64,000 bases of DNA, taken from positions 27,938-91,937 of the forward strand of contig CAVXOB010000004.1 in the NCBI GenBank assembly GCA_963763175.1, read 5' to 3'. Position 1 is the first letter of the stretch; each line of letters begins with the position of its first letter. This DNA comes from an uncultured Planctomycetota bacterium. GTDB taxonomy: Bacteria; Planctomycetota; Planctomycetia; Pirellulales; Pirellulaceae. Position numbers and translations under genes: made by a program. Below the pieces are notes generated by a model. It made no database searches. It had not been told where the DNA came from and saw only the letters and a list, made by a program, of their open reading frames with translations. Of this stretch, positions 59,791-64,000 are shown in pieces.

Positions 59791-60405
59791 GAGATTCTCC
59801 TGATCAAAGGTGAGATGATCTCCCCGGAACTACCCCCCGGGGGACGCCGGGCCAACGGTCTTCGCGTCGCGAATCGCTGCGTCGCTTACGGCCGAACGGT
59901 TGGGAGTCACCCGGTCGCATGATTATCTCGTTGCGAAAGTCTGACTAACTCGGCGCGCATTTCATGGTTCTCGACACAGGCACGAAAGTTACTAGCTAGT
60001 CTCTGTCCGGAAATTCAATGCCCGCGTTAAACGCCAGTTTTTTTGGCTCATCCGACCGAAGCGTGCGCGATGGTGACTGGAGGTTTTCTGAGTACTGTCA
60101 TATCCGGAATGGAAATTTGCGATCCGCGCACACATCCAGCGGCACCACCCGTAGGGTAGCTTTTTTGACACTCAAAGTCCACTGTTTGCCTGCCAGCCAG
60201 CACGGCTCGGTTAGCTGGGTTGGTTCATTCTCGCCACCCTGGTTAGATATCCGAAGCTCTGAGAGCCCCACACTGTCTCATCCGGCGTTTGAACCGCTAA
60301 CAGAGCATCTCACTCAAGCACGGGCTTGCTCAGCAGAGCGAGGCTCCGCCGATACCCTCGGCATGCGACGACGTTGCTAGTGTGCTTGGCAGCACGACAA
60401 GCAGC

Positions 60406-61986
60406 TTAAGACTTCAGAGCTTCGGACGGCTTCGATTCTAACGTATTCTCTGTCTTCACTCCAAGACGAATTAGTAAACCAATCAGCAAGTCGCCGATCC
60501 GTTGGGGACCACGACGCTTCTTAGCAGCAAGCTCCTCCAAAGGTTTCCCTTCGCTGGCGTAGGTGCTCTTGGGAAGCCACACAAACGCTTCGTTCATGTC
60601 TGCGATCATGCGATCCAAGTCGCTATGATGGTCAGCATGAAATTCACGTAGCTTTGACAAGATCGCTTCACGATCGACACCTTTGCCACGCCAAACCTGA
60701 CGGCCGCCGACCAACTGAAACACCATTCGCATCGCCCGGTTGGCGATCCGGCAATGACGGTCTCGGGGATCCACTTTCTGTTTTTCCCAGAATGCAGAGA
60801 GCCCGCGATAGTACGAGTGGCACTTGATTAGATTTTTAGCAACCATCATCGCCGCGCCGCGCAGGCGGCGATTGCTACTGCGGCTCAGACCACCCTGATA
60901 ATCGACCGTATCGCTCTGGTAACGTGATGGGTACAAGCCAGCTCGACCATTGATCGCCCGCGCACTGGCGTAGTGCTCGATTGGTCCAGCCTCACCGGCC
61001 AGACCGGCTGCCGAGACCACATTGATTCCCGTAACACTAAGCAGCAGCACGTACGGTGTTTTCACCAAAAACCTCGCCATTTCCCGCTCCGTCCGATTGA
61101 TTTGCTCGGTCAACAGTTCCCACACTTCAAGCAATCCCGACCACTGATCCGTCACCATGTCAGCGAGGCCTGTTGGTTCAGCAGCGGTCAGGGACCACGC
61201 AACGATCCGTTCGAGCGTTCGCTTTTGGAAACGAATTTTCTGCTGCTTCAGATGCTTCGCTAGCCCGTCCACATTGGCTTGCTTGATTGCGGCGGCTGAC
61301 GAGAACTTCTTGGCTAGCGGCATGGCAACCGATCCCTTAAAGAACTTATGTTGGATAAACAAGTCGTCGTATCCACGCATGCACTGATGCATCATGGTGC
61401 GAATCTGCACTTGTAGTTTGGCGCGTTGTTTAACGAGGATTCCTCGATGCCGCGTAAGTCGCTGTAGCGATTGGTAATTTTCATCGACTGGCAAGATCGC
61501 CAATCCGTAGCCATTGATCGCCGCATGAAAGATCGCTTCAAGATCATTGTCGTCGGTTTTCTCGTTGGGGTGAAGTGCTCGTCGGTAGTGCTTGGAGGCA
61601 AACGGATGAACCGTTCGCGTATCCATGCCCGCTCTGCGAAGCGACGCTTGAACTGGCTTGTGATAGACGCCGGTCATCTCCACTGCCGCGATTGAATCCT
61701 CGATCGAATGCTCCGTGAGTGCCTCTTTGATCTGCGCGTTCATCGCAGCCAAGGAGCCCGCATTGTGTTCAACCTCAGTAGGTTCGACGAGCACTCTGCC
61801 GTAGAAGTCCAAGAGCATCCATTTGGATCGACGTTTGGCACAGTCGACCGAGACGACACCGAAGTGAGACGGGCCGACAGCTTCGACCCGTTGCTGGATC
61901 ACGCCAGCGGGCTTGCCGACGTATCGCCGTGCGGGTGATTTTGATTTTGACGATTTTGTCGGACGTTTTTTTGTGGCTGTTGCCAT
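60406..61986 (-). mobile_element. IS110-family transposase gene (DEDD recombinase). The ends of the element are not defined.
   Basis: The start is at ATG 61986 (MATATKKRPTKSSKSKS...). The DEDD_Tnp_IS110-type N-domain shows VVSVDCAKR, AVEMTGVYH and KTDDNDLEAI. The Transposase_20-type C-domain shows LLLSVTGINVVSAAGLAGEAGPIEHYASARAINGRAGLYPSRYQSD. About 310 nt of non-coding DNA lies upstream and about 500-600 nt downstream. Confidence 0.9.
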
Positions 61987-62295
61987 GGTCGAGTTCCTTG
62001 ATTGAAGAAAAGTGAATTCCTTCAATAAAAGCACTCAGAATGCGCCGGGGGATAGTTTTTTGCTATCTTTGGTACATACCAGGCATAACTCAAGTGTCCA
62101 ATGATTTGTTTAATAAAAGCGTCCTCGGCGAATCGAAACTCGCCGAGAACCGTCGGCACCGTTGGCGCACCGTCGACCGGGATATCCCTTGTCAAGTTGC
62201 ACCTCTGCAGAGCTTGATTCCGTTTCTCCCGGCAGACCCAGTACAAGGTCCAGCGACAACTCGCACAAATTATCATTGGACGCTTGAGCCATGGA

Positions 62296-62975
62296 GTGCC
62301 GGGATAAAACCGGTTTGGAATCGAGAATGAAAGTTTCTTACGAGGAAGGTCTAACCAACTACTTCGGCCTCCGGCGGAGGTGCGACGAAGGTAACAACGT
62401 CGTGCTGAGCGTCCGTGCAGGGGGAAGCGTAGGCCAGCTAATTGAGCTCCGAAATCAGGTCTTCCATGTGCCGACCGTGTCATATGCGTCGGGAAGGCAA
62501 CACCAGCTACACCGCTTTGGTAAGGGTAGTCTGGACATGGCGGAGTCGAAGAACCTGTGCATGCGTGGAAAATTCCAAACGCGAGAACCGGGAAGTCCCA
62601 TTTGCCCCTGGGGTCAAGTCGTGATGACTCACTGCCAGGGCGACCAGCGAACCTCTATGAGCGCAATTCTGGTATGAACGCGGATGGGATGGCAGATGAG
62701 GCCGTAGTACCGTCGACGCGGGTGAACAAAGCTGCGACCGCAGTGGCGGAATCCGCCGAGGAAAGGGACCTCACTGAAGGGAAGTATTGCCGGATTGGCG
62801 TCGATGCTTCGGACTCTGAGCCGGAACAAGTATCAATTGGAGCGTCACGGGAAATCACGACGGGTAGCGTCACAGTGTGTCGCGATCGTTTGACCCAACG
62901 GAGGAGCCGTATGAGTCAAGGCTCACGTACGGATCTGTGCGGGGGGCGGCTGGCAACAGCCGTCCCTACCGCGAT
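62296..62975 (+). mobile_element. Group II intron RNA lacking an intron-encoded protein (ORF-less or IEP-deleted). The 5' boundary is uncertain.
   Basis: - Domain V is at 62904-62935: GAGCCGTATGAGTCAAGGCTCACGTACGGATC, versus the canonical GAGCCGUAU...ACGUACGGUUC.
- Domain VI is at 62939-62972: GCGGGGGGCGGCTG-GCAA-CAGCCGTCCCT-A-CCGC. It has a bulged A at 62968, 7 nt before a terminal ...GAT at 62975, which fits the AY 3' end.
- Upstream segments (GGCGGAGTCGAAGAACCTGTGCATGCGTGGAAAATTCCAAACGCGAGAACCGGGAAGTCCC, and a leader translating as ADEAVVPSTRVNKAATAVAESAEERDLTEGK) resemble bacterial group II intron domains I-IV.
- Candidate 5' ends are GTGCC at 62296 and GTGCG at 62380.
- No reverse-transcriptase ORF lies between the leader and domain V. 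Confidence 0.6.
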
Positions 62976-63161
62976 CCTTGAAAACCTCCGGCGCACCCTT
63001 CGGTCGGATGAGCCATCTTTTGTCCTGCGTGCGGCGTGGAGCTTGACAAGCACAATGACGATCGCAACTCCCCGAAATTGCAATCGACGTCAATCAAATG
63101 AGTTCTTGCCCCACGTTTCCGCTTCCCAAATCAGACACACAGGACACGTAATATCACGTGT

Positions 63162-64000
63162 TTACCGCTTGGGTCGTTGACCTTTGTCGAGCAGGACTTC
63201 CAAGCCTTCGTAAAGGTCGTCGGGGAGGGGATGCGGTGCGCGGACGACGTCCCCGTTGACCAATCTGCTGTGGGGAATCTCGAGATGATCCAGAAGAACC
63301 GCGAGGTGATCTTCGGCAGTGAAGATCTCATCGGGGACTTCATCACCGATCAGCCATTGGCAGCGAAAGACGGCCTCGTTGACCTCGTCCTTATTGGAGA
63401 GGCTTCCCATTGACATGTGAATCCGATCGGGAAGCAAAACATCACCGGATTTCTTCCAGTGATAGCGGGCCTCCAAAAAGTTCCAAGTATAGAGAAGATC
63501 CTTACCACTAAATCGGACGGGCATCCACTGATCGGCGGGACTGAAATCAATCCTGTATCGAAAGTTAGCGCTTTTGTTCGGCATATAGGCCCAATGACTG
63601 ATGATGGAACCGCCAGGTCCGAGGTCGCTTCGAATCAATCGAAACTCACGCATTGCTTGCTCGATTCCCAAGTAGTTATCCCGTCCCTCGAGTCCATAAG
63701 GCCCAAGAATATAATCGTCATAGGGATCATGGGCCCAAGCGTGTCGATTCCAGAAAAAATCTCGACGCTCGGTTTTGTTCATCCCTTCGGGCGGGATCTC
63801 ATACGGGCCATGGAGCAGCGTGGCCGTGTCGCGATATTTGGTCTTGTCCTTAATTTTGACGATTTCATCGCCTACTTCCGCCAAGTCCGGGAAGACAAGG
63901 TACATGGCTTTGAGATCAAAGTCGCGTTTCTGATCCACGACCCGAGCCATCACAATCGGATGAATCAAGAGGGGATTTGCCCGTGAGCCCAGAGTGACAT
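63162..64000 (-). CDS. Hypothetical protein (frame stays open to the window end, so possibly 5'-truncated here)
   Basis: The track ORF is 268 aa (63162-63968). The same frame continues without a stop to 64000 (VTLGSRANPLLIHPIVMARVV...). No family is recognised. Confidence 0.55.
   Translation of the reverse strand, partial: VTLGSRANPLLIHPIVMARVVDQKRDFDLKAMYLVFPDLAEVGDEIVKIKDKTKYRDTATLLHGPYEIPPEGMNKTERRDFFWNRHAWAHDPYDDYILGPYGLEGRDNYLGIEQAMREFRLIRSDLGPGGSIISHWAYMPNKSANFRYRIDFSPADQWMPVRFSGKDLLYTWNFLEARYHWKKSGDVLLPDRIHMSMGSLSNKDEVNEAVFRCQWLIGDEVPDEIFTAEDHLAVLLDHLEIPHSRLVNGDVVRAPHPLPDDLYEGLEVLLDKGQRPKR

What the first reader, a model, noticed from the sequence alone, without database searches (positions are those of the whole stretch)
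62296..62975. Compact group II intron with intact-looking domains V and VI but no reverse-transcriptase ORF
Seen:
- A near-canonical 32-nt domain V lies at 62904-62935.
- A domain VI hairpin follows, with a bulged A (62968) 7 nt from a ...GAT end (62975).
- Upstream sequence looks like bacterial intron domains I-IV, including the short stretch that normally precedes or begins the IEP (translation ADEAVVPSTRVNKAATAVAESAEERDLTEGK).
- Only about 200 nt separate that leader from domain V, so the maturase/RT is absent.
- Domain V ends ...ACGGATC instead of ...ACGGTTC. This would turn the conserved G-U wobble next to the AGC triad into a G-A mismatch.

Inference: this is either an IEP-deleted intron that could still be spliced or mobilised in trans by a full-length copy elsewhere, or a dead relic. 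ORF-less bacterial group II introns are rare. This one sits right next to an IS110 element.
Basis: partly seen in the sequence, partly recalled or inferred. Interest (0 to 1): 0.6.

Follow-up and report, generated by a model that had tools for sequence, protein, structure and literature searches.

The report
ORF-less group II intron, 64 copies
This is a complete 682-base self-splicing-type intron that has lost its own reverse transcriptase yet has spread to about 64 near-identical copies in this planctomycete genome. It most likely borrowed the enzyme of two or three full-length relatives, which makes it a bacterial counterpart of a SINE and a natural record of how such introns choose DNA strand and target.

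Summary
Rfam finds group II domain I (RF02005, 125.6 bits) and domains V/VI (RF00029, 42 bits), and there is no RT ORF.

- **Domain V.** The G·A pair is not damage. All relatives share it, including RT-encoding ones and introns on Pseudomonas and Bradyrhizobium plasmids.
- **Not a relic.** The genome holds 64 full-length copies: 47 identical and 14 with one change.
- **Targets.** Every copy sits at one fixed point (…GAGYYATG^CCT) in the arms of a ~290-nt palindromic repeat.
- **Polarity.** Each repeat offers two inverted targets. Over megabase blocks only one polarity is used: 58 of 67 favoured-strand sites are filled against 5 of 70 on the other strand. Every canonical favoured-strand site is filled.
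- **Helpers.** Two intact RT/maturase introns without an endonuclease domain lie in the same target. Their ribozymes are ~90% identical to this one, so they are the likely helpers.
- **Other species.** ORF-less orthologues exist in two sister species.

Best reading: an active, non-autonomous intron mobilised in trans by replication-linked retrohoming. The kind is known (T. elongatus TeI3, RmInt2). No RNA data could be obtained.

The parts
62294..62975 (+). ORF-less group II intron, 682 nt (5' GAGUG … GAU 3')
   Evidence: The boundaries come from comparing empty and filled target arms. Rfam gives RF02005 and RF00029. The genome holds 64 full-length copies.
62299..62591 (+). Domain I (closing stem CCGG/CCGG). 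It contains the RF02005 match at 62330-62555.
   Evidence: cmscan. The RNAalifold consensus shows compensatory pairs.
62481..62487 (+). EBS1 (CAUAUGC) in a domain I terminal loop
   Evidence: The same loop covaries with the 5' exon in relatives: CCGGAC with GUCCGG, CCCUC with GAGGG, GGUGUC with GACACC, and CAUGGC with GCCAUG. In this copy 3-4 contiguous pairs form with (Y)AUG, or 6 pairs with TTATG arms if one U is bulged (inference).
62595..62690 (+). Domain II (a branched stem enclosing two hairpins)
   Evidence: RNAalifold columns 325-419 show several compensatory pairs.
62691..62697 (+). J2/3 (GGCAGAU), with the candidate gamma nucleotide A at 62694
   Evidence: Here it is A, paired with the terminal U. 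In L030 and L031 it is G and the intron ends in C.
62698..62771 (+). Domain III.
   Evidence: RNAalifold columns 428-504. Blocks such as GUAGUACCG and CGAGGAAAGGGA do not vary across 9 diverged introns.
62772..62903 (+). Short domain IV (~130 nt) with no ORF, specific to the ORF-less lineage
   Evidence: It is conserved in ORF-less copies of two other species and in older variants. It has no detectable similarity to the parents' IEP gene. Indels between variants break any reading frame.
62904..62935 (+). Domain V (AGC triad with a G·A pair, AC bulge, short upper helix)
   Evidence: RF00029 alignment. All relatives share the same ACGGAUC.
62939..62972 (+). Domain VI, with the bulged branch-point candidate A at 62968
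   Evidence: RF00029. The stem shows compensatory changes.
62083..62293 (.). Core of the palindromic host repeat. Its right arm (…ATCATTGGACGCTTGAGCCATG) is the 5' exon of this intron. Its left arm (minus strand, …GAGTTATG) carries an IS110.
   Evidence: Copy-number profile, repeat census and arm census.
62976..63013 (.). Outer part of the right arm of the host repeat, which is the 3' exon (CCTTGAAAACCTCC…)
   Evidence: About 31 copies exist, then unique DNA begins. It is an inverted repeat of 60045-60090.
60091..62082 (-). IS110-family element inserted in the other arm of the same repeat, bounded by a CT core
   Evidence: Pfam DEDD_Tnp_IS110 + Transposase_20, and NCBIfam IS110 RNA-guided transposase. 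There are 15 copies.

Best explanation
The element is a complete group II ribozyme of the RF02005 type. That lineage lacks the DNA endonuclease domain and resembles subgroup IIB. Domain IV is reduced to ~130 nt and encodes no protein.

It is a non-autonomous retroelement. Proposed mechanism:

1. RNA from one or a few master copies is bound and spliced by the RT/maturase of the two intact full-length introns in the same genome.
2. The resulting RNP reverse-splices into DNA at …GAGYYATG^C in the arms of a ~290-nt palindromic repeat. It is guided by a short EBS1-IBS1 pairing (CAUA with UAUG) and the +1 C.
3. The helper protein has no endonuclease, so cDNA synthesis is primed by a nascent strand at the replication fork. 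That would explain why only one of the two inverted arms of each repeat is filled, and why the filled polarity flips at two places in the chromosome.

The burst is recent and has saturated the preferred targets.

**Shown:** ribozyme identity, boundaries, copy number and identity, target, polarity pattern, and presence of intact helpers.

**Inferred:** splicing, trans-mobilisation by those particular proteins, and the link to replication.
For: **Ribozyme.**
- RF02005 scores 125.6 bits and RF00029 42 bits.
- 53 of 207 consensus pairs keep pairing through double changes in 7 ORF-less variants.
- Gamma-gamma' and EBS1-IBS1 covary across relatives.

**Recent mobility.**
- There are 64 full-length copies: 47 at 100% and 14 with one change, mostly private.
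- Mean pairwise difference is 0.05% among introns. The median is 0.8% in the adjacent repeat arm.
- Identical introns sit in at least 7 flank variants, in either arm, and next to an IS110 end.
- Older 5'-truncated fragments occur here and in G010.

**Target rules.**
- On the favoured strand, TTATG arms are 28/28 filled and CCATG arms 29/31.
- All 9 empty favoured-strand sites carry target changes (CGATG, GGAT, or +1 A).
- On the other strand only the better-pairing TTATG arms are hit (5/24). CCATG arms are never hit (0/42).

**Polarity blocks.**
- C2 below 0.9 Mb: minus 10/11, plus 0/12.
- C2 above 0.9 Mb: plus 19/19, minus 1/19.
- C11 below 2.6 Mb: plus 26/34, minus 3/36.

**Helpers.**
- L021 and L022 encode an IEP with RVT_1 and GIIM (TIGR04416, 344 bits), YADD, and no endonuclease domain.
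- They sit in the same target, and their ribozymes are ~90% identical to this one.

**Precedents.**
- ORF-less TeI3 introns are mobilised by driver IEPs (PMC2882425).
- RmInt1 prefers the lagging-strand template, and RmInt2 uses both inverted repeats of ISRm17 (PMC5894124).
Against:
- **Replication direction unconfirmed.** GC skew, ORF orientation, tetramer skew and DnaA boxes are uninformative. dnaA lies inside a uniform block. The 23S and 16S genes point in opposite directions within one block.
- **Post hoc blocks.** The polarity blocks were drawn after seeing the data.
- **Short EBS1-IBS1.** Only 3-4 contiguous pairs form in this sub-lineage, and no convincing EBS2-IBS2 was found.
- **Distant helpers.** The helpers' ribozymes differ by ~10% from the ORF-less one, so cross-recognition is assumed.
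- **Class behaviour in vitro.** If the lineage belongs to class E, tested members splice only by hydrolysis in vitro (PMC3753933).
Confidence: 0.8

Rival explanations
1. Passive cargo. The intron entered the palindromic repeat once or a few times. It was then multiplied as DNA when the repeat itself transposed, or it was spread among repeats by gene conversion. No intron retromobility would be involved.
For: All 70 intron-bearing sites lie in one repeat family. That repeat has long terminal inverted repeats and ~75 copies, like a MITE.
Against: - 64 arms of the same repeats are empty.
- Identical introns sit in the left arm, the right arm or both, and in at least 7 flank variants.
- The arms are about 15 times more diverged than the introns.
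- The filled arm depends on chromosomal position, not on the repeat's own orientation.
- Occupancy follows IBS1 and +1 sequence.
- DNA transposition of the repeat would not produce a megabase-scale strand rule for which arm carries the intron.
Confidence: 0.07
2. Active, but driven by another reverse transcriptase. The driver could be the distant intron at C11:1840120-1842055 (L023) or an RT no longer in this genome, rather than the L021/L022 protein.
For: The ORF-less ribozyme is only ~90% identical to L021. In one domain I hairpin it resembles L023 more than L021. L023 has an intact 512-codon frame.
Against: L023 uses a different target (GUCCGG^U) and is 74-81% identical. L021 and L022 share the target site and an EBS1 of the same type (CAUUUGC against CAUAUGC).
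Confidence: 0.1
3. Dead relic. The copies are fossils of a past burst, and none can splice or move now.
For: There is no RNA data.
Against: - 47 of 64 copies are identical over 682 nt, which implies a very recent burst.
- GAGUG and G·A also occur in IEP-encoding relatives.
- Domains V and VI and all conserved junctions are intact.
Confidence: 0.03

Closest known systems
ORF-less TeI3 introns and driver TeI4 IEPs of Thermosynechococcus elongatus (Mohr, Ghanem and Lambowitz 2010, PMC2882425)
   Same: Both are ORF-less derivatives of one origin that outnumber their RT-encoding relatives. Both sit at sites with matching IBS, and both are held to be mobilised in trans.
   Different: - Here a single sequence type has 64 copies (17 ORF-less copies in T. 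elongatus) against 2-3 helpers.
- The helper has no endonuclease domain.
- All copies use one target in a repeat, rather than diverged targets.
- Domain IV is not a recognisable deletion product of the present IEP gene.
- The host is a planctomycete.
RmInt1 and RmInt2 of Sinorhizobium meliloti (class D, no endonuclease domain; PMC5894124, PMC4615759)
   Same: Both home into a repeated mobile element, and both have a helper without an endonuclease. RmInt1 shows a bias for the lagging-strand template. RmInt2 uses both inverted repeats of an IS, so one target always has the right polarity.
   Different: - Those introns are autonomous and have about 7-10 copies.
- Here the spreading form is ORF-less.
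- The host element is a protein-less palindrome with ~146 arms.
- The polarity rule is visible genome-wide and is nearly absolute.
- The Rfam domain I type is RF02005. Whether RmInt1 is of that type was not tested.
RF02005-type introns on proteobacterial plasmids (P. putida NZ_CP047313, B. elkanii NZ_CP126037)
   Same: Both have the RF02005 domain I and domain V ending ACGGAUC (G·A). In both, the IEP stop codon lies inside domain V, and the open frame runs upstream through domains II-III. The IEPs are 55-58% identical.
   Different: Those are single, RT-encoding introns with a 5-nt domain V loop (a trait described for classes IIE and IIF, PMC3753933). The planctomycete lineage has a shorter upper helix and loop.
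MITEs and SINEs (non-autonomous elements that use the machinery of autonomous relatives)
   Same: All are short and non-coding, reach high copy number, and depend on a few autonomous relatives. They can outcompete those relatives for the same targets.
   Different: Here the vehicle is a ribozyme that recognises its own target.

Membership tests
Group II intron ribozyme | Domain I-IV architecture recognised by a class covariance model | tested here: met
   RF02005 matches the full model at 125.6 bits against a gathering score of 49.
Group II intron ribozyme | Domain V hairpin with AGC triad and 2-nt bulge, followed by domain VI with a bulged A 7-8 nt from a 3' AY | tested here: met
   RF00029 scores 42 bits against a gathering score of 40. 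The bulged A is at 62968 and the intron ends GAU. The triad G pairs with A rather than U, as in every member of this lineage examined.
Group II intron ribozyme | 5' end GUGYG | tested here: inconclusive
   The end is GAGUG, which matches 4 of 5 positions (U2 to A). It is fixed by the comparison of empty and filled sites. The same variant occurs in RT-encoding relatives L021, L030 and L031, while L023 and L029 have GUGUG.
Group II intron ribozyme | EBS1 in domain I complementary to the last bases of the 5' exon | tested here: met
   The loop position covaries with four different 5' exons in relatives. In this copy 3-4 contiguous pairs form. Occupancy is higher for the better-pairing TTATG arms.
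Group II intron ribozyme | Splicing with lariat or linear intron release | not testable with these tools
Autonomous mobile group II intron | RT/maturase ORF in domain IV | tested here: not met
   Domain IV is ~130 nt. The only long frame has no Pfam hit, and indels break it in sister variants.
Trans-mobilised ORF-less group II intron (TeI3-like) | Intact ribozyme, a related IEP-encoding intron in the same genome, and several near-identical copies at sites with fitting IBS | tested here: met
Trans-mobilised ORF-less group II intron (TeI3-like) | Mobility that depends on a helper IEP | not testable with these tools
   This needs a two-plasmid mobility assay.
Bacterial class E / IIE | IEP phylogeny, a 5-nt domain V loop, and alpha' in a terminal loop of Id3 | tested here: inconclusive
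   Proteobacterial RF02005 relatives have the 5-nt loop. This lineage has a 4- or 6-nt loop. No tree with named class E proteins was made.
Class C / IIC | Small ribozyme without EBS2, inserted just after a hairpin, with a 3-4-nt IBS1 | tested here: not met
   The best model is RF02005. Relatives have a 6-bp EBS1 and a 7-bp EBS2 (L023: CCUUUUC with GAAAAGG). The terminator-like hairpin lies ~35 nt from the site, and only in one arm.

The most novel reading that the evidence does not exclude
The ORF-less form may be a long-lived, SINE-like lineage of its own rather than a one-off deletion.

- It has its own conserved domain IV.
- It has retuned EBS1: CAUGGC in older variants, then CAUGUGC, CAUUUGC and CAUAUGC.
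- It is present in several species of the genus.
- It has out-competed its helpers for a shared, saturable set of targets.

Its polarity map may also give the replichore layout of a genome that has no GC skew. That layout would place origin and terminus at the two switch points, far from dnaA.
Probability: 0.45. Interest if true: 0.7.

Novelty: new member of a known kind. Interest (0 to 1): 0.6.

Why it matters
How group II introns can multiply to high copy number bears on the origin of spliceosomal introns and of non-LTR retroelements. This genome offers a very clean natural case.

- **Scale.** One non-coding ribozyme sits at ~64 copies beside 2-3 helpers.
- **Built-in controls.** Each host repeat presents the same target in both orientations a few hundred bases apart. 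Strand choice and target rules (IBS1 variants, the +1 base) can therefore be read directly from the genome and then tested.
- **Mispairing tolerated.** The G·A pair at the catalytic triad of domain V and a 5' GAGUG are compatible with recent proliferation, which is of interest for ribozyme structure.
- **Annotation.** ORF-based intron finders miss all 64 copies.

Tried and rejected
- **Origin and terminus.** I tried to find them independently. GC and AT skew with change-point analysis, long-ORF orientation, tetramer-skew principal components and DnaA-box clusters gave no signal. dnaA is at C2:2.03 Mb, inside a uniform block. tRNA arrays and the 23S (C2:0.97 Mb, plus) and 16S (C2:1.33 Mb, minus) genes give conflicting directions.
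- **Minimum-free-energy folding.** Folding the single sequence gave long-range pairs unlike a group II intron. I used comparative folding instead.
- **EBS2/IBS2.** UCAGGU pairing with RCUUGA is possible, but part of it is invariant in relatives with other targets, so I left it open.
- **Domain V and coding constraint.** I dropped the idea that domain V of the ORF-less form was 'freed' from coding constraint. The helpers' stop codon lies before the differing bases.
- **Origin of domain IV.** Local alignment of domain IV against the helpers' IEP genes scored no better than shuffles.
- **Wider search.** The ORF-less domain IV was not found in 200 other genomes of the order.
- **Literature.** I found no paper on group II introns of planctomycetes. 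A 2022 survey lists its sampled planctomycetes with no such introns.

Full report
**Observation.**

An Rfam scan of the window gives exactly two hits, both inside the finding.
- RF02005 (group II D1-D4 type 6) matches 62330-62555 at 125.6 bits, E 3e-35, over the full model.
- RF00029 (domains V/VI) matches 62902-62975 at 42 bits.

Domain V is at 62904-62935. The third pair of domain V is G·A. No reverse transcriptase is present. The only long frame (62557-63180) has no Pfam match.

**Boundaries.**

All copies in the genome are preceded by …ATGGA and followed by CCT…. Unoccupied copies of the same flanks read …ATG|CCT…. The inserted unit is therefore 682 nt, at 62294-62975, and starts GAGUG. 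A more distant RT-encoding relative in the same genome has GUGUG at that position. Other RT-encoding relatives have GAGUG too.

**Anatomy.**

I aligned seven ORF-less variants (81-93% identical, plus one at 67%) and folded them comparatively.
- The fold gives 207 pairs, of which 53 are kept through changes on both sides.
- It defines domain I (62299-62591), a branched domain II (62595-62690), J2/3, domain III (62698-62771), a short domain IV (62772-62903), and domains V and VI.
- The A at 62694 in J2/3 covaries with the last base of the intron: A with U here, G with C in L030 and L031. This fits gamma-gamma'.
- EBS1 lies in a terminal loop at 62481-62487. In relatives the same loop reads CCGGAC, CCCUC, GGUGUC and CAUGGC, opposite 5' exons ending GUCCGG, GAGGG, GACACC and GCCAUG.
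- In this variant EBS1 is CAUAUGC. It pairs over 4 contiguous bases with arms ending UAUG and over 3 with arms ending CAUG.

It is in frame with the RT in full-length relatives. The conserved IEP, however, starts about 100 codons further on (TIGR04416 begins at residue 122; plasmid homologues align from there). The nucleotide blocks in this stretch do not vary across diverged introns.

**The G·A pair.**

Every relative examined has …UACGGAUC. That covers the RT-encoding introns of this genome, those of four sister species, and RF02005-type introns on a Pseudomonas putida plasmid and a Bradyrhizobium elkanii plasmid. It is a trait of the lineage and no sign of decay. In all RT-encoding members the IEP stop codon lies inside domain V.

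**Census.**

BLASTN against the whole assembly (7.69 Mb, 11 contigs) finds the following:
- 64 full-length copies, comprising 47 identical, 14 with one mostly private substitution, and 3 more diverged;
- several copies interrupted by an IS;
- a few old 5'-truncated fragments.

RT-encoding relatives with ~90% identical ribozymes lie at C11:1987712-1989637 (L021) and C2:2291195-2293117 (L022). A third is broken by a DDE-transposase IS (L024), and one is cut by a contig end. A more distant one is L023. The L021 protein has RVT_1 and GIIM, matches TIGR04416 at 344 bits, carries YADD, and has no endonuclease domain.

**Target.**

The copies do not lie in genes. All are in the arms of a ~290-nt palindromic, MITE-like repeat.

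A motif search finds 146 arms (TTGGAYRCTNGAGNNATG). Of these, 70 carry an intron, 64 are empty, 11 carry an IS110 directly, and 1 has a changed +1 base.

In the window the intron occupies the right arm. An IS110 (60091-62082, bounded by a CT core) occupies the left arm, 2-3 bases from the equivalent intron site.

Introns differ from each other by 0.05% on average. The adjacent arm sequences show a median difference of 0.8%. Identical introns occur in at least seven flank variants and next to an IS110 end. The introns therefore entered pre-existing repeats one by one.

**Strand rule and saturation.**

Each repeat offers the target once on each strand. The filled strand is uniform over megabase blocks.

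| Block | Plus-strand sites filled | Minus-strand sites filled |
|---|---|---|
| C2 below 0.9 Mb | 0/12 | 10/11 |
| C2 above 0.9 Mb | 19/19 | 1/19 |
| C11 below 2.6 Mb | 26/34 | 3/36 |

The polarity changes again toward the end of C11. With blocks so defined (after seeing the data), 58 of 67 favoured-strand sites are filled against 5 of 70 on the other strand.
- On the favoured strand TTATG arms are 28/28 filled and CCATG arms 29/31.
- All nine empty favoured-strand sites carry target changes: six CGATG arms, other GGAT-type variants, and one with +1 A.
- On the disfavoured strand only the better-pairing TTATG arms are hit (5/24). CCATG arms are never hit (0/42).

So two factors decide insertion: strand and pairing with EBS1 (plus the +1 base).

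**Mechanism.**

The pattern is what is known for introns whose protein lacks the endonuclease domain. RmInt1 reverse-splices into single-stranded DNA at the fork and prefers the lagging-strand template. RmInt2 uses both inverted repeats of an IS, so one target always has the right polarity (PMC5894124). ORF-less introns that use the protein of relatives are documented in T. elongatus (PMC2882425). I therefore read this element as a non-autonomous intron mobilised in trans by the L021/L022 protein through replication-linked retrohoming, in a recent burst.

Not shown are transcription, splicing, which protein acts, and the direction of replication.
- Skews, ORF orientation, DnaA boxes and tRNA/rRNA orientation gave no usable replication map.
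- dnaA is not at a switch point.
- The contig order is unknown. Balanced replichores are possible but not established.

**History.**

ORF-less copies with the same domain IV occur in two sister species (93% and 90% identical). Older variants (81-85%) occur in this genome and in G015. A 642-nt ORF-less relative (67%) lies in another family of the order. The ORF-less domain IV shows no detectable similarity to the present IEP genes. It was not found in 200 other genomes of the order. The ORF-less form is thus a lineage of some age, not a fresh deletion. Its EBS1 has changed along the way.

**Comparison and novelty.**

In kind this is known: an ORF-less group II intron that spreads with a borrowed protein into a repeated element, with a strand bias. 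What is new:
- the host phylum (no paper found; the planctomycetes in a 2022 survey are listed without such introns);
- the scale of a single sequence type (64 copies against 2-3 helpers);
- the complete filling of one polarity of a paired-target repeat;
- the evidence that 5' GAGUG and a G·A triad pair go with recent proliferation.

I rate it a new member of a known kind, of fair interest to specialists.

Noticed in passing
window 60045-60090, 62083-62293 and 62976-63013 (one repeat copy, split by IS110 and the intron): This is a ~290-nt palindromic, MITE-like repeat with ~65-75-nt imperfect terminal inverted repeats and no ORF. The genome holds about 75 copies (146 arms). It serves as a landing pad for three different mobile elements. 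Shorter variants of the repeat also exist.
   Followed up: partly
window 60091-62082 (minus strand): The IS110-family element is bounded by a CT core (ttatgcCT|ggtatg … gacagta|CTcagaaaa). All 15 copies sit in TTATG arms of the palindromic repeat. Most of the ~310-nt 'flank' at 61987-62295 noted for this IS therefore belongs to the repeat, not to the IS.
   Followed up: partly
G000 C2:278678-280249 and 21 further copies (also inside L024): A 1572-nt IS with a DDE_Tnp_1 transposase and GAATGGCGTGGACTTA… inverted ends inserts almost always at one 11-bp site (GAGCTTGATTC, duplicated) in the core of the same repeat. It has also hit two ORF-less introns near base 40 and the IEP gene of one full-length intron.
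   Followed up: partly
G000 C2 0.78-1.04 Mb and C11 2.43-3.35 Mb: Intron polarity flips at these two places. The genome has no usable GC skew or gene-orientation bias. dnaA is at C2:2.03 Mb, the 23S gene at C2:0.97 Mb (plus) and the 16S gene at C2:1.33 Mb (minus), unlinked and opposed.
   Followed up: partly
L041 (P. putida plasmid NZ_CP047313) and L042 (B. elkanii plasmid NZ_CP126037): RF02005-type introns share the G·A pair in domain V. Their IEP stop codon lies inside domain V, and an open frame runs upstream through domains II-III. Automatic annotation therefore calls over-long ltrA genes (599 aa in P. putida).
   Followed up: partly
L037 (G000 C3:288249-289586): Two older ORF-less variants (84.5% and 91.6% identical to the main type) lie head to tail, one base apart, at a contig end.
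   Followed up: no
G000 C2:880-885 kb and C11:3555-3559 kb: There are two arrays of about 26-28 tRNA genes each, out of 112 tRNA genes in all.
   Followed up: no
window 62121-62150 (minus strand): A terminator-like hairpin (13 pairs followed by GCTTTTATT) lies inside the repeat core, about 35 nt upstream of the left-arm insertion site.
   Followed up: no
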